Shown one piece after another: positions 14,093-18,939 of a stretch of 37,721 nucleotides of DNA. The position numbers and the translations under genes were made by a program. Source of the stretch: a virus (Duplodnaviria > Heunggongvirae > Uroviricota > Caudoviricetes); the IMG/VR virus record IMGVR_UViG_2778261460_000005, positions 1-37,721 of that record. One strand, 5' to 3'. Numbering within the stretch: position 1 is the first letter of the stretch; every line of letters starts with the position of its first letter. The notes under the pieces were generated by a model. That model did no database searches. It was not told the DNA's origin and saw nothing but the letters and a program-made list of their open reading frames with translations.

Positions 14093-14581
14093 ATGGGCAT
14101 AAGAGAACTAAACCTCACCAAAGAACAGCACGAGTGGCTGAATGGCTGGCTTGAACTGTGGGGCGCATGGGTTTATTCAGGTCGTCTGGAAAAGCGCATG
14201 AGCAGCGTAATAGCTAAGTTCATGGAGAGCGTAGAGCCGGGAAGAGTTATGACAAGGCCAATGTGTAATGATGATGATGGAATGTTGATTTCTCAGGTCG
14301 TCGATTCCGTCATGTACATTGACAAGAAAGCCTTTGGCATCCTCCTCAGCTACTACGCCCACGGCTCTTCCAAGCACGCCATTGCATCTTACTATCATCG
14401 CGTCGCAAGACCTCGCAAGATGTTATGCCGGGGCGGCGGGCGCATTCAAAAACCATCGCTCGCAACCTGTCGACGGGAAGTTGACGAAATCCTCAATGCC
14501 TCGTTGTTTATGATTTACCCGGTTCTGGATGGTGCGTTTAAAAACCGGAAACGTGTAGAGAAAATTAAACATGTAGCATAG
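14093..14581 (+). CDS. Q: Late antiterminator Q, phage 82/QuuD-type (about 162 aa)
   Basis: Motifs LELWGAW and CNDDDGM resemble QuuD/phage-82 Q (LERWGAW, CCDDDAM); start at ATG 14093 with RBS AGGGAGAAGG; not lambda-type Q. Confidence 0.7.
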   Translation: MGIRELNLTKEQHEWLNGWLELWGAWVYSGRLEKRMSSVIAKFMESVEPGRVMTRPMCNDDDGMLISQVVDSVMYIDKKAFGILLSYYAHGSSKHAIASYYHRVARPRKMLCRGGGRIQKPSLATCRREVDEILNASLFMIYPVLDGAFKNRKRVEKIKHVA

Positions 14582-14587
14582 AACGTG

Positions 14588-14627
14588 TTGACATCATTGA
14601 GCAAATGAGCAACACTATTCGCATAAG
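14588..14627 (+). promoter_or_regulatory. Candidate late promoter pR'/qut region
   Basis: TTGACA at 14588-14593 directly after Q stop; -10 element not confidently assigned. Confidence 0.35.
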
Positions 14628-14672
14628 CTGCCGTTAGTGACTCTTAAGTTGCAACGGTGGCTTTTTTTATTT
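14628..14672 (+). terminator. Candidate tR' terminator (Q-antiterminated)
   Basis: CUGCCGUU/AACGGUGG 8-bp stem (two G-U pairs), 17-nt loop, followed by CTTTTTTTATTT. Confidence 0.45.
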
Positions 14673-14747
14673 GGGTCAGTCGTATAAAGGTCATTACGGA
14701 AGGCTGTTAACCTTCTTATCGTGGTTCGAGTCCACGCTGTCCCGCCA
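14673..14747 (+). tRNA. Phage-encoded tRNA, anticodon GUU (Asn-like)
   Basis: Hand-folded 75-nt cloverleaf: acceptor GGGTCAG/CTGTCCC with one T-T mismatch, anticodon stem GAAGG/CCTTC, loop CTGTTAA, T-arm CGTGG-TTCGAGT-CCACG, 3' GCCA. Confidence 0.45.
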
Positions 14748-14752
14748 AATAT

Positions 14753-14828
14753 GCTGGTTTAGCTCCAATGGTAGAGCGGTCGCCTTGTAAGCGAATGGGT
14801 AGCGGTTCAAGTCCGTTAACCAGCACCA
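14753..14828 (+). tRNA. Phage-encoded tRNA, anticodon UGU (Thr-like)
   Basis: Hand-folded 76-nt cloverleaf: 7-bp acceptor GCTGGTT/AACCAGC, D-arm GCTC-CAATGGTA-GAGC, anticodon loop CTTGTAA, T-arm AGCGG-TTCAAGT-CCGTT, 3' ACCA. Confidence 0.65.
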
Positions 14829-14946
14829 TAACTGAGCCGTAGCCACTGGATGTCCTGAATTCATCAGTGATAGTTATGCTGCGGTCTTCTTTTTCTCCCT
14901 TCCCAATATAAGAACTACGCAATCCGTTACTGGCGGAGGCGTTGCT

Positions 14947-15162
14947 ATGAAATCAATGGACAAAATCTCAACTGGCATTGCCTACGGAACATCCGCTGGT
15001 AGTGCGGGATACTGGTTTTTGCAGTGGTTGGATCAGGTCAGTCCATCACAGTGGGCTGCGATTGGGGTGCTTGGAAGCCTTGTGTTGGGCTTTCTCACCT
15101 ATCTGACAAATCTGTACTTCAAAATCAGAGAAGACAGAAGAAAGGCTGCGAGAGGTGAATAA
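14947..15162 (+). CDS. S: Class II holin (pinholin), phage 21 S-like, 71 aa
   Basis: [45 protein letters not shown]... with dual-start Met1/Met4 and two TM segments. Confidence 0.9.
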
Positions 15163-15659
15163 TGCCTCCATCATTACGAAAAGCCGTTGCTGCGGCTATT
15201 GGTGGCGGGGCTATTGCTATAGCATCTGTGTTAATCACTGGCCCAAGTGGTAACGATGGTCTGGAAGGCGTCAGCTACATACCATATAAAGATATCGTTG
15301 GTGTATGGACTGTATGTTACGGGCATACCGGAAAAGACATTATGCTCGGTAAAACGTATACCGAAGCAGAATGCAAAGCCCTCCTGAATAAAGACCTTGC
15401 CACTGTCGCCAGACAAATTAACCCGTACATCAAAGTCGATATACCGGAAACAACGCGCGGCGCTCTTTACTCGTTCGTTTACAACGTTGGTGCTGGAAAT
15501 TTCAGAACATCGACGCTTCTTCGCAAAATAAACCAGGGCGATATCAAAGGCGCATGTGATCAGCTACGGCGCTGGACATACGCTGGCGGTAAGCAATGGA
15601 AAGGGCTGATGACTCGCCGTGAGATTGAGCGTGAAGTCTGTTTGTGGGGGCAACAATGA
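15162..15659 (+). CDS. R: SAR endolysin (T4-lysozyme-like muramidase), 165 aa
   Basis: N-terminal Gly/Ala-rich SAR segment [20 protein letters not shown] followed by catalytic region [22 protein letters not shown]; start overlaps holin stop. Confidence 0.9.
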
Positions 15660-16093
15660 GTAGAGTAACCGCGATTATCTCCGCTCTGGTTATCTGCATC
15701 ATCGTCTGCCTGTCATGGGCTGTTAATCATTACCGTGATAACGCCATGACCTACAAAGAACAGCGCGATAAAGCCACATCCATCATCGCTGATATGCAGA
15801 AGCGTCAACGTGATGTAGCAGAACTCGACGCAAGATATACAAAGGAACTTGCTGATGCTAACGCGACTATCGAAAGTCTCCGTGCTGATGTTTCTGCTGG
15901 GCGTAAGCGCCTGCAAGTCGCCGCCACCTGTGCAAAGTCAACGACCGGAGCCAGCAGCATGGGCGATGGAGAAAGCCCAAGACTTACAGCAGATGCTGAA
16001 CTCAATTATTACCGTCTCCGAAGTGGAATCGACAGGATAACCGCGCAGGTTAACTACTTGCAGGAATACATCAGGACGCAATGCCTTCGATGA
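15656..16093 (+). CDS. Rz: Rz-like i-spanin
   Basis: ATGA overlap with endolysin stop; N-terminal TM segment then coiled-coil region. Confidence 0.8.
15855..16040 (+). CDS. Rz1: Rz1-like o-spanin lipoprotein, embedded in +1 frame of Rz
   Basis: [20 protein letters not shown] lipobox then Pro-rich [15 protein letters not shown]; entirely nested within Rz. Confidence 0.7.
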
Positions 16094-16393
16094 TAGCGAT
16101 AATTTTACTCATCATCCTTCACATCTGGCTCTGTAGACAGGGTGGTGATCACTTCTGGAGTGAATCCAGATTAAACATCTCATTGCTGATGCTTGAAGTT
16201 GAGCATCTGGCGCGCGGTAAGGGGCTGCGTTGAGATAAGAGCCAGTTCATTACAAAGCCTATCTACGGGTGGGCTTGATAATGAAACCGGAATTTATTCT
16301 GGGCAACCAGTTACGGCAGTACAGCGAAACAACCCAAGCCAGTAAGTGGGGAAATAACACTGGCAGCCACTGAAAGATGAACCTCCAGCCTTA

Positions 16394-16831
<438 letters not shown>

Positions 16832-16867
16832 TACGGGCTAATTGATGTATTGAATATTTCGAGCGTA

Positions 16868-16888
16868 AATTGATGTGACACATCAATT
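16868..16888. promoter_or_regulatory. Perfect 21-bp palindrome AATTGATGTG-A-CACATCAATT (operator-like) upstream of the protease gene
   Basis: 10-bp arms around a single centre base; an additional half-site AATTGATGTA at 16840-16849. Confidence 0.35.
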
Positions 16889-16944
16889 ATTCTGGTGGAT
16901 GAATTCATTATGATTTTTTCACACACCGGTATCGGAGCAAATCG

Positions 16945-17685
16945 ATGCATCAAACTCTAGCCAACGCAACTTTTCAGGTCATTGCAGGGGATTCTCGTGG
17001 TAGTGGGTTCAGCTTTATGCGAGAAGATCTGGTCGTAACCAATTTTCATGTTGTCGCCGCCTGCTGTAACTTGCAGAATCTGCGTCAAATTAATCATGTT
17101 AACCTTCAGACTGAATCTAATGAGCATATAGAAGCTCAAATATTGTACATTGATGGTGACAACGACTTTGCGATTATGCGGTTGCAATCACCGCTTCCTG
17201 CCGGGAGAACAGTACTTCAACCATCCGTAGGATTTACTCCAACTCGAGGCAAAAAGTTAATCTTTGCCGGGTATCCGCATGGGCTGCCTCAATTGCTTAC
17301 GAATGAAGGGATTATTTCCGCCCCTCTGGAAAGTGGGCGTTTTGCTCTTGATGGAATGGTTAATGGTGGAAATTCAGGCGGTCCAATTATTGACCGGGAA
17401 ACGGGAGAAGCTGTAGGCATTGTTACTCAACGTCGATACATTCTGCCGCCTGATGCGCAGCAGCTCTCTAATGAAGTTGCTCAGCTTCGCGGCTATTTGG
17501 CGCAGGCAGCACAGCAAATGTCAGTGGAAGTCATGGGGGTTAACTTTGGACGAATGGCAGATATGTTCAGTCGCTCACTGCAAATGGTTAATGAAATGTT
17601 GAATCTTAATGCCAATCCTGGCATTGGGACTGGTTTCTCGTTAGAACCAATCGTAAATGCAGTTAATTCACTTCCTCAACATTGA
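16945..17685 (+). CDS. Trypsin-like (S1/chymotrypsin-fold) serine protease, cytoplasmic, 246 aa
   Basis: Catalytic triad context TNFHVV (His), DNDFAIMRL (Asp), GNSGGPII (Ser); no signal peptide. Confidence 0.8.
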   Translation: MHQTLANATFQVIAGDSRGSGFSFMREDLVVTNFHVVAACCNLQNLRQINHVNLQTESNEHIEAQILYIDGDNDFAIMRLQSPLPAGRTVLQPSVGFTPTRGKKLIFAGYPHGLPQLLTNEGIISAPLESGRFALDGMVNGGNSGGPIIDRETGEAVGIVTQRRYILPPDAQQLSNEVAQLRGYLAQAAQQMSVEVMGVNFGRMADMFSRSLQMVNEMLNLNANPGIGTGFSLEPIVNAVNSLPQH

Positions 17686-17712
17686 TCAAGCTGCGATTTA
17701 GTAAAAGACATA

Positions 17713-17742
17713 GGGCCACTGGCAAGTGCGAGTGGCTTTTCT
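17713..17742 (+). terminator. Intrinsic terminator after protease gene
   Basis: GCCACT-GGCAAGTGCG-AGTGGC hairpin followed by TTTTCT. Confidence 0.5.
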
Positions 17743-17866
17743 ATTGCCGTCAAATGGGTAGCATCATTGTAATGGCTTTAACTTTAGGTGCAGAATTATG
17801 GTAAAACCGGACTTGGATTCCGTTGAATAAGAATGGTGACCATAACACAGAGTCACCACAGATTAT

Positions 17867-18232
17867 TTATCCGCGCGCTTCGCGACCAGGCTCATCTTCA
17901 TTAACGCGATAACGCCAATATCGCTCAGGCTTAACCCAAACCACTTTATCACCGCTTACTTTGCGGAATTGGGTAATGACAGGTGTAGATAAAACAAGAT
18001 TACCATCAGCATTTTCTTTCAGAAACTGCTCATTATCGAGTTTGACTAAATAATCAACTACGTCTTCCTGATACAGGCAACCGTCATATTCTAACTGAGC
18101 CATCATCCACTTCATCACGTCTGTAAGAGACAACTTGAGTGCGTTTGGGTTTACGGCTTTGGGTTGGTAGCAGTCAGTGATTCTTCTGGAAATCTGGCTC
18201 TTTCTTGCTTTCTTCCTGAAAACCACTGACAC
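17867..18232 (-). CDS. Hypothetical protein (121 aa, or 83 aa from internal Met MKWMMAQ)
   Basis: Minus-strand ORF convergent with the protease gene; basic N-terminus; start uncertain. Confidence 0.45.
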   Translation of the reverse strand: MSVVFRKKARKSQISRRITDCYQPKAVNPNALKLSLTDVMKWMMAQLEYDGCLYQEDVVDYLVKLDNEQFLKENADGNLVLSTPVITQFRKVSGDKVVWVKPERYWRYRVNEDEPGREARG

Positions 18233-18360
18233 CAGTAATCACCAACAAAAACATCAAAGCTGTTTATGATTGGCTCCTGAATAGCCATCGCCGGGCCGCC
18301 TGAAACCAAATAAACAATGTCGCCGATTTTAAATTTAGGGGTACGTGGATTTTTTGACAT
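18151..18360 (-). CDS. Small protein with YodC/DUF2158-like motif (69 aa)
   Basis: KIGDIVYLVSGGPAMAI and CQWF signature as I recall for DUF2158; RBS AAGGAAG 5 nt upstream of ATG. Confidence 0.5.
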   Translation of the reverse strand: MSKNPRTPKFKIGDIVYLVSGGPAMAIQEPIINSFDVFVGDYWCQWFSGRKQERARFPEESLTATNPKP

Positions 18361-18387
18361 AAAGCTTCCTTTTTAAGAGAGAGATAC

Positions 18388-18939
18388 ATGGCACTCACCG
18401 ACAAACAAGAAATGTTCTGTCGCGAGTACCTCATCGATTTAAACGCCACGCAAGCGGCTATTCGGGCGGGGTACAGCGCTAAGACAGCTAACCGTACCGC
18501 ATCCGAAAACCTGTCAAAACCTGACATCAAGTTAAGAATCGCCGAACTGAAAGCGCAACGCAATGATCTTGTTGGTATTAATGCAGAATATGTGCTTAAT
18601 CGCCTTATTGAAATCGACCAGATGGATGTGCTTGACATTCTCCTGCAAAACGGTGAGCTAAAACCCATTAAAGACTGGCCTAAGGTATGGCGCACAACGC
18701 TATCAGGAATGGATGTCATGGAGATGGTATCCGCAGATAGCGCCGCACTTCTGAAGAAAATCAAATGGCCTGATAAGGTTAAAAACCTTGAGTTGCTTGG
18801 GCGTCATGTTTCTGTTCAGGCGTTTAAAGACAACGTCAAAAATGAAGTGACTGGCGCTGATGGAGGACCAGTCAGAACAGAAATTACCAACTTAACGCCG
18901 GAGCAGGCTGCAGAGGCGTATAGAAAAATGATGGGCTAA
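18388..18939 (+). CDS. Terminase small subunit
   Basis: [34 protein letters not shown]... typical small-terminase N-terminal DNA-binding region. Confidence 0.85.

What the first reader, a model, noticed from the sequence alone, without database searches (positions are those of the whole stretch)
16832..17742. Stand-alone cytoplasmic trypsin-like serine protease cassette between the lysis genes and terminase
A 246-aa ORF has an intact His/Asp/Ser triad in chymotrypsin-fold context (TNFHVV, DNDFAIMRL, GNSGGPII), lacks a signal peptide and has a helical C-terminal extension. It is preceded by a perfect 21-bp palindrome (16868-16888) with an extra half-site, and followed by an intrinsic terminator (17713-17742). 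It is not in the position of a prohead protease (which would sit between portal and capsid), so it looks like a cargo gene: candidate defense or abortive-infection effector, anti-defense factor, or regulator-cleaving protease.
Basis: partly seen in the sequence, partly recalled or inferred. Interest (0 to 1): 0.6.

Follow-up and report, generated by a model that had tools for sequence, protein, structure and literature searches.

The report
Prophage cargo cassette: PDZ-less cytoplasmic HtrA-like protease
An E. coli lambdoid prophage carries a small mobile accessory cassette encoding a soluble HtrA-type serine protease of unknown function; it always sits between the lysis and DNA-packaging genes of unrelated prophages, is not a virion protease, and is most plausibly an untested phage-conflict (defence) gene.

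Summary
ORF 16945-17685 encodes a 246-aa Trypsin_2/S1C protease with an invariant His35/Asp74/Ser144 triad and no signal peptide or membrane segment. It is preceded by a perfect 10+1+10 palindrome with a third half-site and followed by a strong intrinsic terminator.

Two corrections:
- The "C-terminal helical extension" is a variable ~55-aa helical hairpin inserted into the protease fold. The last strand and helix return to the barrel.
- In enterobacterial prophages a conserved 59-aa ORF (16652-16831) travels with the gene.

Comparative genomics supports cargo status:
- The cassette occupies the same slot, after lysis and before terminase, in prophages with at least five terminase types.
- These prophages have their own ClpP or S49 head proteases.
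- A sibling prophage lacks the cassette (window 16284-17796).

Distant full-length relatives are single genes with no conserved partner. They lie inside a type I R-M operon, next to TIR or KAP-NTPase genes, in P2-like prophages, or on integrase islands.

It belongs to no known defence family, no paper found characterises it, and no sigma-70 promoter was found. Function is inferred; anti-phage proteolysis is my best guess (~0.4).

The parts
16284..17796 (+). Extent of the accessory cassette, as an insertion/deletion relative to a sibling prophage
   Evidence: In E. coli Ecol_AZ147 (L092), homology to the window stops at 16283, just after rha, and resumes at 17797. Only 18 bp lie between. That prophage has the same DUF6953, YodC and terS genes but no ORF59 or protease. 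GC content is 0.41-0.47 here, against 0.49-0.56 in the flanking lysis and terL genes.
16284..16651 (+). Conserved non-coding leader of the cassette; function unknown
   Evidence: It is 98-99% identical between the window and a P22-like prophage. No ORF, Rfam family or consensus promoter was found.
16652..16831 (+). ORF59: a 59-aa acidic (pI 5.2) small protein linked to the protease in enterobacterial prophages
   Evidence: It is intact in 15 of 16 distinct IMG/VR loci that share the upstream region, disrupted in L103 and truncated in L012. Only 6 clusters exist in 5.8 billion proteins, all from E. coli or unnamed. There is no Pfam, PHROG, NCBIfam or PADLOC hit. The AlphaFold model is low-confidence and all-beta.
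16832..16944 (+). Conserved 113-bp intergenic control region
   Evidence: Column conservation is 0.85-0.91 across 18 loci, as high as the best-conserved coding parts. There is no conserved RNA structure: consensus energy -7.8 kcal/mol, covariation term -0.4. The minus-strand ORF across it shows no codon-position bias.
16840..16848 (.). Third half-site, AATTGATGT
   Evidence: Exact direct copy of the left arm, 28 bp upstream. The three exact copies in the window all lie within 16840-16888.
16868..16888 (.). 21-bp palindrome AATTGATGTG-A-CACATCAATT; candidate protein-binding site
   Evidence: The left arm GAATTGATGT is invariant. The centre and right arm vary; 10 of 18 loci keep TTGATG-N5-CATCAA. 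That pattern fits a DNA site rather than an RNA hairpin. No similar site exists elsewhere in the prophage.
16897..16913 (.). Second near-invariant block, GGATGAATTCATTATGA, containing the 10-bp palindrome ATGAATTCAT and -10-like hexamers
   Evidence: Per-column entropy is close to zero in 18 loci. No matching -35 element was found.
16945..17685 (+). 246-aa soluble S1C (HtrA-type) serine protease without a PDZ domain. Catalytic codons: His35 at 17047-17049, Asp74 at 17164-17166, Ser144 at 17374-17376
17440..17607 (+). Residues 166-221: variable helical hairpin inserted between the strand after Ser144 and the last strand of the barrel
   Evidence: The AlphaFold model has helices 168-191 and 201-222 (pLDDT 57-72), flanked by high-confidence barrel. 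This is the least conserved part of the family (0.40 against 0.59 for the core). Its dN is about 4 times that of the core, and alleles are recombinant at this boundary.
17608..17640 (+). Residues 222-232, NANPGIGTGFS: the most conserved motif of the family, forming the last beta-strand
   Evidence: N222, A223, N224, G226 and G230 are invariant. Regional conservation is 0.84. Strand 227-231 has pLDDT about 95.
17712..17745 (+). Intrinsic terminator
   Evidence: Fold energy is -20.8 kcal/mol, z = -3.3, followed by a U-tract. Equivalent GC hairpins with a T-run follow the gene in 8 other loci, with different stem sequences.

Best explanation
The region is a mobile accessory ("moron"-type) cassette of temperate enterobacterial phages. 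It consists of a leader, ORF59, a conserved control region, the protease gene and a terminator.

Shown:
- The product is a soluble, cytoplasmic, PDZ-less HtrA-fold serine endopeptidase with an intact triad.
- Its one distinctive structural feature is a variable ~55-residue helical hairpin inserted next to the active-site loops.
- It is not needed for virion assembly.
- It moves between unrelated phages and islands as a single gene.

Inferred mechanism:
- It acts in conflicts between the host or prophage and other phages.
- The protease is held latent, probably by the hairpin, which takes the regulatory place that PDZ domains occupy in HtrA proteases.
- A protein made during infection by another phage engages the hairpin, or otherwise opens the active site.
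- The activated enzyme then cleaves phage or essential host proteins, blocking that infection. This would work like the e14 prophage protease Lit, but with an unrelated fold.
- The terminator and the conserved palindromic control region suggest transcription that is independent of the phage late operon and controlled by an unidentified DNA-binding protein.
For: - Fold and active site.
- Cytoplasmic location.
- Same slot in different backbones: the gene lies between lysis and terminase in prophages with five or more terminase types and three endolysin types, even at 44% protein identity.
- Presence/absence polymorphism with defined breakpoints.
- Separate head proteases in the same prophages.
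- No conserved partner gene in 23 loci.
- Small, patchily distributed family: 64 clusters at E <= 1e-30 among 1.84 billion representatives. It is found in Proteobacteria, Bacteroidota, Firmicutes, Actinobacteria, Planctomycetes, Chloroflexi and a haloarchaeal plasmid.
- Distant members in defence or mobile contexts:
  - embedded as hsdM-protease-hsdS-x-hsdR with overlapping gene ends (L025);
  - directly after hsdR and hsdMS (L021);
  - two genes downstream of a TIR_2 gene, with a 247-aa protein of no family between (L007);
  - next to a KAP NTPase (L004-L006);
  - in the cargo end of a P2-like prophage (L008);
  - in another myovirus-type prophage (L027);
  - on integrase islands at smpB (L003, L009).
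- Selection: the core is under purifying selection (dN/dS 0.08-0.19), while the hairpin evolves about 4 times faster and is exchanged by intragenic recombination.
- A terminator is present in every related locus examined.
- The protease domain's best PADLOC matches are defence-associated proteases: retron type XI RT-protease at 2e-13, Avs1b, and LmuA for relatives. Mestre et al. [quoted passage not shown]
Against: - No functional data exist, and no paper on this family was found.
- The PADLOC hits are domain-level only. They score no better than housekeeping MarP and DegP models, which are all far below their cut-offs.
- No sigma-70-like promoter was found in 16000-18500 at 9 of 12 matches, and only 8-of-12 matches in the cassette. 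Expression in the lysogen is therefore unproven.
- The gene is co-oriented with the late operon in every phage locus, which fits a late lytic function equally well.
- The defence-neighbour evidence comes from about 20 loci, without a genome-wide background.
- Several loci have housekeeping neighbours.
- The autoinhibition or sensor role of the hairpin rests on a medium-confidence model (pLDDT 57-72). I could not inspect the coordinates.
Confidence: 0.4

Rival explanations
1. Phage-benefit late function. The protease is simply another late-operon gene, made together with the lysis and packaging proteins. It would help the carrying phage by degrading host proteins late in infection, tuning lysis, destroying receptors or defence proteins, or being released at lysis.
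For: - Strict positional conservation immediately after the spanin genes, co-oriented with the late operon, down to 44% identity.
- No recognisable independent promoter.
- The same slot in one related viral contig holds a protein with a Tad2-like (anti-defence) domain.
Against: - Full-length relatives occur as single genes outside phages: inside a type I R-M operon, next to TIR or KAP NTPase genes, and on integrase islands.
- Sibling phages do without it.
- None of 50,697 isolated phage genomes carries it.
- A conserved terminator right after the gene has no obvious role inside a Q-antiterminated operon.
Confidence: 0.25
2. Lysogenic-conversion factor unrelated to phages. The protease would be a cytoplasmic protein-quality-control or stress protease, or one acting on a host regulator, that changes host physiology.
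For: - HtrA-family fold, with best NCBIfam similarity to MarP and DegP-type stress proteases.
- Moron-like architecture with its own terminator.
- Some distant relatives carry Tat-like signal peptides (P0118, P0139) or sit among housekeeping genes.
Against: - The gene is rare: about 0.5% of complete E. coli genomes.
- Its distribution is patchy and typical of horizontal transfer.
- The hairpin is fast-evolving and recombining.
- Neighbours in distant loci include defence genes and mobile-element genes. These features are more typical of conflict systems than of physiology genes.
Confidence: 0.15
3. Toxin-antitoxin-like addiction pair. ORF59 would be a small labile inhibitor of a toxic protease, and the pair would be controlled through the palindrome. 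It would stabilise the prophage or fire when host translation is shut off.
For: - The small acidic ORF59 lies directly upstream, is co-oriented, and is intact in 15 of 16 loci that share the palindromic control region.
- One precedent for a protease toxin exists: IetAS, as described in PMC13069673.
Against: - The genes are 113 bp apart, and the palindrome lies between them rather than upstream of the first gene.
- The protease is intact where ORF59 is disrupted (L103) or truncated (L012, a protease 88% identical to the window's).
- Relatives at 44% identity, and all non-enterobacterial relatives, lack any ORF59 homologue or conserved small neighbour.
- ORF59 has no DNA-binding or antitoxin family match.
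Confidence: 0.1
4. Virion morphogenesis (prohead or scaffold) protease.
For: It is a protease gene in the late region of a prophage.
Against: - It lies upstream of terS, not between portal and capsid.
- It is present with at least five unrelated packaging and head modules.
- It is absent from a sibling phage with the same module.
- The prophages carry dedicated ClpP or S49 proteases.
Confidence: 0.02

Closest known systems
HtrA/DegP/DegS/DegQ serine proteases (MEROPS S1C), including MarP (Rv3671c) and the plant Deg proteases
   Same: - Same chymotrypsin-type two-barrel fold and His-Asp-Ser triad.
- GNSGGP active-site loop, and a GIG-x-GF last strand followed by a C-terminal helix.
- Best sequence matches in the PDB.
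   Different: - No signal peptide or membrane anchor, and no PDZ domain.
- A ~55-residue helical hairpin is inserted between the strand after the catalytic Ser and the last strand. No solved structure aligns over it.
- All NCBIfam HtrA-type models score far below their cut-offs.
- The gene is phage or island cargo rather than a core envelope-stress gene.
Trypsin-like protease domains of known anti-phage systems: retron type XI RT-protease, Avs1/Avs2, Lamassu LmuA-protease and the trypsin-MBL modules
   Same: - Cytoplasmic Trypsin_2-type domains carried on mobile defence loci.
- Best PADLOC hits of the window protein and its relatives.
- Literature: PMC7736814 and the bioRxiv preprints 10.1101/2025.09.03.673762 and 10.1101/2025.11.14.688446.
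   Different: - In those systems the protease is fused or adjacent to a sensor (reverse transcriptase, STAND NTPase, SMC-like or Hachiman helicase). It often also has a substrate effector such as an MBL-fold hydrolase.
- Here there is no fused domain and no conserved neighbour in 23 loci.
- The matches cover only the protease domain.
Lit protease of the e14 prophage (from my own knowledge: a zinc metalloprotease that cleaves EF-Tu when the T4 Gol peptide appears)
   Same: A working analogy only: a single protease gene carried by an E. coli prophage that could both sense an infecting phage and abort the infection by proteolysis.
   Different: Unrelated fold and catalytic type. Neither the trigger nor the substrate is known for the window protein. 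Nothing here tests the analogy.
Lambdoid phage morons (from my own knowledge: genes such as bor or lom, as defined by Hendrix and co-workers)
   Same: - Inserted between genes that are adjacent in a sibling phage.
- Has its own terminator.
- Slightly lower GC than its flanks.
   Different: - No recognisable promoter of its own was found.
- It is co-oriented with the late operon.
- The slot is conserved over deep divergence of the gene itself.

Membership tests
Pfam Trypsin_2 (PF13365) / peptidase family S1 | Profile match above the gathering score | tested here: met
   74.9 bits against a cut-off of 27.6, E = 1.4e-20, residues 19-159, covering the full profile 1-144.
Pfam Trypsin_2 (PF13365) / peptidase family S1 | His-Asp-Ser catalytic triad in order, in the conserved motifs | tested here: met
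   H35, D74 and S144 are invariant in 30 sequences. Catalytic activity itself was not tested.
HtrA/DegP family (S1C) | HtrA-type protease-domain fold | tested here: met
HtrA/DegP family (S1C) | One or two C-terminal PDZ domains | tested here: not met
   No PDZ hit in Pfam at E <= 0.1. The protein ends 14 residues after the last barrel strand.
HtrA/DegP family (S1C) | Extracytoplasmic location (signal peptide or membrane anchor) | tested here: not met
   No hydrophobic segment; best 19-residue hydropathy window 0.96.
HtrA/DegP family (S1C) | Trimer-based oligomer | not testable with these tools
   Only single-chain prediction was available.
NCBIfam equivalogs (MarP, DegP/Q/S, HhoA, MamE, Avs1b) | Score above the curated cut-off | tested here: not met
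   The best is MarP at 52.7 bits against 250. All others are also far below their cut-offs.
Phage prohead maturation protease | Encoded within the head module (portal - protease/scaffold - capsid) and co-inherited with it | tested here: not met
   It lies upstream of terS, is combined with at least five terminase and head types, and is absent from a sibling phage. Separate ClpP or S49 genes lie next to the portal gene.
Moron (autonomous accessory transcription unit of a temperate phage) | Inserted between genes that are adjacent in related phages | tested here: met
   L092 lacks window 16284-17796.
Moron (autonomous accessory transcription unit of a temperate phage) | Own terminator | tested here: met
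Moron (autonomous accessory transcription unit of a temperate phage) | Own promoter, with expression from the repressed prophage | tested here: inconclusive
   There is no sigma-70 consensus match, only 8-of-12 matches. The conserved control region suggests regulated transcription. No expression data are available.
Known protease-containing defence systems in PADLOC (retron XI, Avs1/2, Lamassu-protease, PDC-M35) | Full-length match to the system's protein model | tested here: not met
   Matches are confined to the protease part of models of 216 to 1924 positions, with E from 2e-13 to 8e-5.
Known protease-containing defence systems in PADLOC (retron XI, Avs1/2, Lamassu-protease, PDC-M35) | Sensor and/or effector partner fused or encoded alongside | tested here: not met
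   No fused domain, and no gene family recurs next to the protease in 23 loci.
Type II toxin-antitoxin pair (ORF59 + protease) | Obligate co-occurrence of the two genes | tested here: not met
   The protease is intact with ORF59 disrupted (L103) or truncated (L012). ORF59 is absent from relatives at 44% identity and from all distant relatives.
Anti-phage defence gene (functional class) | Reduces phage infection when expressed | not testable with these tools
   Needs a plaque or efficiency-of-plating assay.
Anti-phage defence gene (functional class) | Enrichment next to known defence genes | tested here: inconclusive
   About 4 of 18 non-enterobacterial loci lie within two genes of R-M, TIR or KAP NTPase genes, and several more are in prophages or islands. 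No genome-wide background was computed.

The most novel reading that the evidence does not exclude
A one-protein immune system. In this reading the PDZ-less cytoplasmic HtrA-fold protease uses its hypervariable helical hairpin, inserted beside the active site, as both lock and sensor. A protein of an infecting phage would bind the hairpin directly and unleash proteolysis. That would make it the first sensor-plus-effector anti-phage protease with no NTPase, reverse-transcriptase or nuclease partner. It would be spread by temperate phages through a dedicated lysis-terminase cargo slot.
Probability: 0.3. Interest if true: 0.7.

Novelty: new variant of a known kind. Interest (0 to 1): 0.45.

Why it matters
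- **A possible new architecture for protease-based immunity.** If the protease is a defence or conflict factor, it would be a minimal single-gene system. In the protease-based systems I compared it with, the protease is fused or adjacent to a sensor or effector partner.
- **A new way to regulate HtrA-type enzymes.** The regulator would be a loop-inserted helical hairpin instead of PDZ domains.
- **A usable cargo slot.** The gene marks a conserved slot between lysis and packaging genes, across many lambdoid backbones, that could be mined for further accessory genes.
- **If it is only a late-expressed helper or a stress protease,** it remains an uncharacterised but ordinary prophage accessory gene, found in about 0.5% of complete E. 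coli genomes.

Tried and rejected
- **Conserved partner gene.** All-against-all BLASTP of ORFs within 4 kb in 23 loci found only the protease itself and antisense shadow ORFs. Small upstream ORFs in distant loci are unrelated to ORF59.
- **Membership in a known defence family.** PADLOC gave domain-level hits only.
- **RNA element in the intergenic region.** RNAalifold on 18 loci gave -7.8 kcal/mol with almost no covariation. Rfam found only the two tRNAs in 14500-18500. As an RNA hairpin the palindrome is weak (-8.7 kcal/mol, z = -2.1) and its centre does not covary.
- **Minus-strand 43-aa ORF (16822-16953) spanning the intergenic region.** It is open in most loci, but shows no codon-position bias (0.56, 0.47, 0.47) and carries stop codons in 3 of 18 loci, so it is not coding.
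- **Sigma-70 promoter.** None at 9 of 12 matches. Only weak 8-of-12 matches in my own scan. I also checked sigma-E, sigma-54, FNR, CRP, PdhR and UxuR-like sites by eye, from memory, and none fits the spacing.
- **Palindrome as the prophage's immunity operator.** No similar site exists elsewhere in the window.
- **Palindrome as a general feature of the family.** It is absent upstream of relatives at 44% identity and of distant relatives.
- **Isolated phage genomes.** No nucleotide or full-length protein match in INPHARED.
- **Plasmids.** Only one match, on a haloarchaeal plasmid.
- **The afdb50 fold library** was unavailable.
- **HMM alignment to HtrA beyond residue 163** misaligns the first inserted helix onto the HtrA C-terminal helix. 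I therefore relied on the AlphaFold topology instead.
- **Literature.** Four full-text searches and four papers gave no report on this family.
Full report
**1. Setting**

The window is a lambdoid prophage of E. coli. Region 15600-18450 is 99.3% identical to a prophage integrated beside torS in strain SCU-171. The gene order around the finding is:
- Q antiterminator (ends at 14581);
- two tRNA genes (14673-14825);
- holin (14947), lysozyme (15162) and Rz (15644-16093);
- a 50-aa ORF;
- about 420 bp with no annotated gene;
- a 59-aa ORF (16652-16831);
- 113 bp of intergenic DNA;
- the protease ORF (16945-17685);
- two minus-strand genes, DUF6953 and DUF2158/YodC (17867-18360);
- terS (18388), terL (18942) and portal (20564).

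**2.

- The 246-aa ORF matches Pfam Trypsin_2 over the whole profile, E = 1.4e-20.
They are invariant in a 30-sequence alignment reaching 34% identity.
- There is no hydrophobic N-terminus or membrane segment.
- The palindrome AATTGATGTG-A-CACATCAATT (16868-16888) and the extra AATTGATGT (16840-16848) are exact.
- It is the only perfect palindrome of that size in the window. About 0.37 would be expected by chance, so on its own it is only suggestive.
- The terminator is a -20.8 kcal/mol hairpin followed by a U-tract (z = -3.3).

**3. What the protein is**

- Sequence searches of the PDB find only HtrA-family protease domains: Deg1, HTRA1-3, DegQ, DegS.
- An AlphaFold model built on the family alignment has mean pLDDT 84.6. 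The chymotrypsin-type barrels exceed 90.
- The unaligned part is a pair of long helices (168-191 and 201-222, pLDDT 57-72).
- After those helices the chain returns as strand 227-231 (pLDDT about 95) and a short terminal helix (234-242).
- That last segment reads GIGTGFSLEPIVNAVNSL. From my own knowledge it resembles the HtrA "GIGFAIP + helix" ending. The preceding NAN-x-GIG motif is the most conserved stretch of the family.
- The helices are therefore an insertion, not a C-terminal extension. By my recollection of DegP loop nomenclature, the insertion occupies the loop that follows the active-site strand (L2 in HtrA terms).
- There is no PDZ domain.
- All curated NCBIfam HtrA, MarP and Avs1b models score far below their cut-offs.

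**4. The family**

- A word-indexed search found 104 relatives, nearly all 235-255 aa.
- An exhaustive profile search of 1.84 billion representatives found only 64 clusters at E <= 1e-30. These are again almost all stand-alone proteins of that length.
- Beyond them lies a second tier of ~260-aa proteins that keep the same insertion and an "SAN-x-GIG" motif.
- A few relatives carry extras: a C-terminal SEC-C zinc motif (P0084, P0087, P0105), Tat-like signal peptides (P0118, P0139), or MORN repeats (P0143).
- Hosts span Enterobacteriaceae, other Proteobacteria, Bacteroidota, Firmicutes, Actinobacteria, Planctomycetes and Chloroflexi, plus one haloarchaeal plasmid.
- This is a small family with a patchy distribution that points to horizontal transfer.

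**5. It is cargo, not a virion component**

- In E. coli the gene is in 29-30 of 5,426 complete genomes, always chromosomal.
- It lies after the lysis cassette (with or without rha) and before terS in four kinds of prophage:
  - the window's type;
  - P22-like (L002);
  - lambda Nu1/A-type (L094);
  - a decayed lambda-like element (L093).
- Relatives at 44-60% identity occupy the same slot in Enterobacter, Cronobacter and Citrobacter prophages. Those phages have their own ClpP or S49 head proteases beside the portal gene.
- In Buttiauxella (L012) an 88%-identical allele lies between the endolysin and terS.
- 31 IMG/VR viral contigs carry a family member. Among 25 distinct contigs, I looked at the first large downstream ORF:
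  - it is a terminase large subunit of the Terminase_6, GpA or TerL_ATPase type in at least 16, with Terminase_3 in 3 more that may overlap these;
  - 4 have the window's own TerL type, which has no Pfam hit but is named TerL in RefSeq.
- The upstream ORFs in those contigs are GH108, GH19 or T4-type lysozymes, Rz proteins and holins.
- A sibling prophage with 98% identical DUF6953, YodC and terS genes lacks window 16284-17796 altogether. That defines a ~1.5-kb insertion/deletion.
- No isolated phage genome in INPHARED has the gene.

**6. Linked elements in enterobacteria**

- ORF59 is real. It is intact and conservatively substituted in 15 of 16 distinct viral loci. It is 99% identical at the DNA level between prophages whose protease genes are only 70% identical.
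- ORF59 is not obligatory. It is disrupted in L103 and truncated in L012, both with intact proteases. It is absent from relatives at 44% identity and from all distant relatives.
- The ORF59 family is tiny (6 clusters) and has no domain match. Its model is low-confidence and all-beta.
- The 113-bp intergenic region is as conserved as the best coding segments, at 0.85-0.91.
- Within it, the left half-site GAATTGATGT and a second block GGATGAATTCATTATGA are nearly invariant.
- The palindrome's centre and right arm drift; 10 of 18 loci keep TTGATG-N5-CATCAA.
- That pattern, the lack of RNA covariation and the lack of coding signal on the minus strand all point to DNA-level control.
- The binding protein is unknown. 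The site is unique within the prophage.
- I found no canonical sigma-70 promoter.
- A terminator follows the gene in every related locus, with differing stem sequences.
- My inference is that a terminator inside a Q-antiterminated late operon only makes sense for transcripts that start locally. Local transcription is not shown.

**7. Evolutionary pattern**

- The protease core is under purifying selection (pairwise dN/dS 0.08-0.19).
- The hairpin accumulates about four times more amino-acid change (dN 0.45-1.0). dS is saturated there, so positive selection cannot be claimed.
- The L093 allele resembles the window's allele in its N-terminal core (87%) but is 98-100% identical to L002 from the hairpin onward. 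Alleles therefore recombine at this boundary.
- Copies disrupted by IS elements exist in E. coli PSS-11 and in a Pseudomonas genome.

**8. Context of distant relatives**

No gene family recurs beside the protease. The neighbourhoods are nevertheless telling.

| Locus | Source | Context |
|---|---|---|
| L025 | deltaproteobacterial MAG | hsdM-protease-hsdS-x-hsdR, with overlapping gene ends |
| L021 | Bacteroides MAG | 16 nt downstream of hsdR plus a fused hsdM/S gene |
| L007 | Pseudohongiella | two genes downstream of a TIR_2 gene |
| L004-L006 | Limibacterium | beside a KAP-family NTPase, inside a polysaccharide locus |
| L008 | not named | after the tail-fibre genes of a P2-like prophage |
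| L027 | not named | inside another myovirus-type prophage |
| L003, L009 | Lysinibacillus and others | integrase islands next to smpB |
| L013 | Salinisphaera | next to an IS110 transposase |

Other loci have ordinary housekeeping neighbours. From my own knowledge, genes embedded in type I R-M operons and next to TIR or NTPase genes are often anti-phage. This is guilt by association from about 20 loci, not a statistical test.

**9. Best explanation and its limits**

- I think the cassette is a phage-borne conflict gene: a latent cytoplasmic protease whose variable hairpin replaces the PDZ regulatory module. It would be activated during infection by another phage and block that infection by proteolysis.
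- Shown: fold, triad, cytoplasmic location, cargo status, single-gene mobility, variable and recombining hairpin, terminator, conserved control DNA.
- Inferred: latency, hairpin gating, trigger, substrates, expression in the lysogen, and any defence phenotype.
- The strongest rival is a late-expressed function that benefits the carrying phage. It fits the strict co-orientation with the late operon and the missing promoter. It fits poorly with the non-phage contexts and the conserved terminator.
- A toxin-antitoxin reading with ORF59 is weakened by the protease-only loci.
- A morphogenetic role is excluded.

**10. Comparison and novelty**

- The protein is a member of Pfam Trypsin_2 and has the HtrA-type fold. 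It fails two defining features of HtrA proteases: PDZ domains and extracytoplasmic location.
- It resembles the protease domains of retron type XI, Avs1/2 and Lamassu-protease systems only at domain level. It lacks their fused or adjacent sensors and effectors.
- The closest functional analogy is the e14 Lit protease, recalled from memory and untested here.
- RefSeq already annotates the gene as "S1 family peptidase". No paper in the searchable library addresses it.
- I rate it a new variant of a known kind. Interest is moderate: a well-defined and easily testable candidate, but with no functional evidence yet.

Noticed in passing
window 17867-18360 (minus strand): Two convergent small genes, DUF6953 (PF22266, E = 3e-23) and DUF2158/YodC (PF09926, E = 6e-13), lie between the protease terminator and terS. 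They occur without the protease in a sibling prophage (L092), so they are a separate cargo unit of unknown function.
   Followed up: partly
window 16257-16305: The rha regulator gene that precedes the cassette in most related prophages is missing here. It spans about 718 bp in L002 (6988-7705). In the window, 49 bp take its place.
   Followed up: partly
window 16284-16651: A 368-bp stretch upstream of ORF59 is 98-99% identical between prophages of different types. It has no ORF, Rfam match or promoter match, so its conservation is unexplained.
   Followed up: partly
window 14673-14825: Two tRNA genes lie between the Q antiterminator and the holin gene. RefSeq annotates them as Asn and Thr in the near-identical prophage.
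   Followed up: no
window 16081-16233: A 50-aa ORF overlapping the end of Rz is annotated as a hypothetical protein. It is conserved (98%) at the same place in a P22-like prophage (L002 6813-6965).
   Followed up: no
L025 116-6474: In a deltaproteobacterial MAG the protease homologue is embedded in a type I R-M operon, in the order hsdM, protease, hsdS, a 217-aa ORF, hsdR. Start and stop codons overlap on both sides of the protease gene.
   Followed up: partly
L093 5345-6085 compared with window and L002: The protease allele is mosaic. Its N-terminal core resembles the window's allele (87%), while the hairpin and C-terminus are 98-100% identical to L002. This indicates intragenic recombination at the core/hairpin boundary.
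   Followed up: partly
P0084, P0087, P0105; P0118, P0139; P0143: Some distant family members carry a C-terminal SEC-C zinc motif, Tat-like signal peptides or N-terminal MORN repeats. Localisation or tethering therefore differs between lineages.
   Followed up: no
IMG/VR loci L100-L128, ORFs upstream of the protease (alignment A5): One ORF in the same lysis-to-protease stretch of a related viral contig has a Tad2-like (Thoeris anti-defence) domain. Another has a TerB domain. The slot therefore holds varied cargo.
   Followed up: no
L093 1247-2242 (minus strand): A different accessory protease, annotated as an SDH family Clp-fold serine proteinase, sits between Q and the holin gene in one related prophage.
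   Followed up: no
L142 2079-3899; L020 6001-10121: The protease gene is interrupted by an IS3 element in E. coli PSS-11, within a decayed prophage. It is interrupted by an ISL3 transposase in a Pseudomonas genome.
   Followed up: partly
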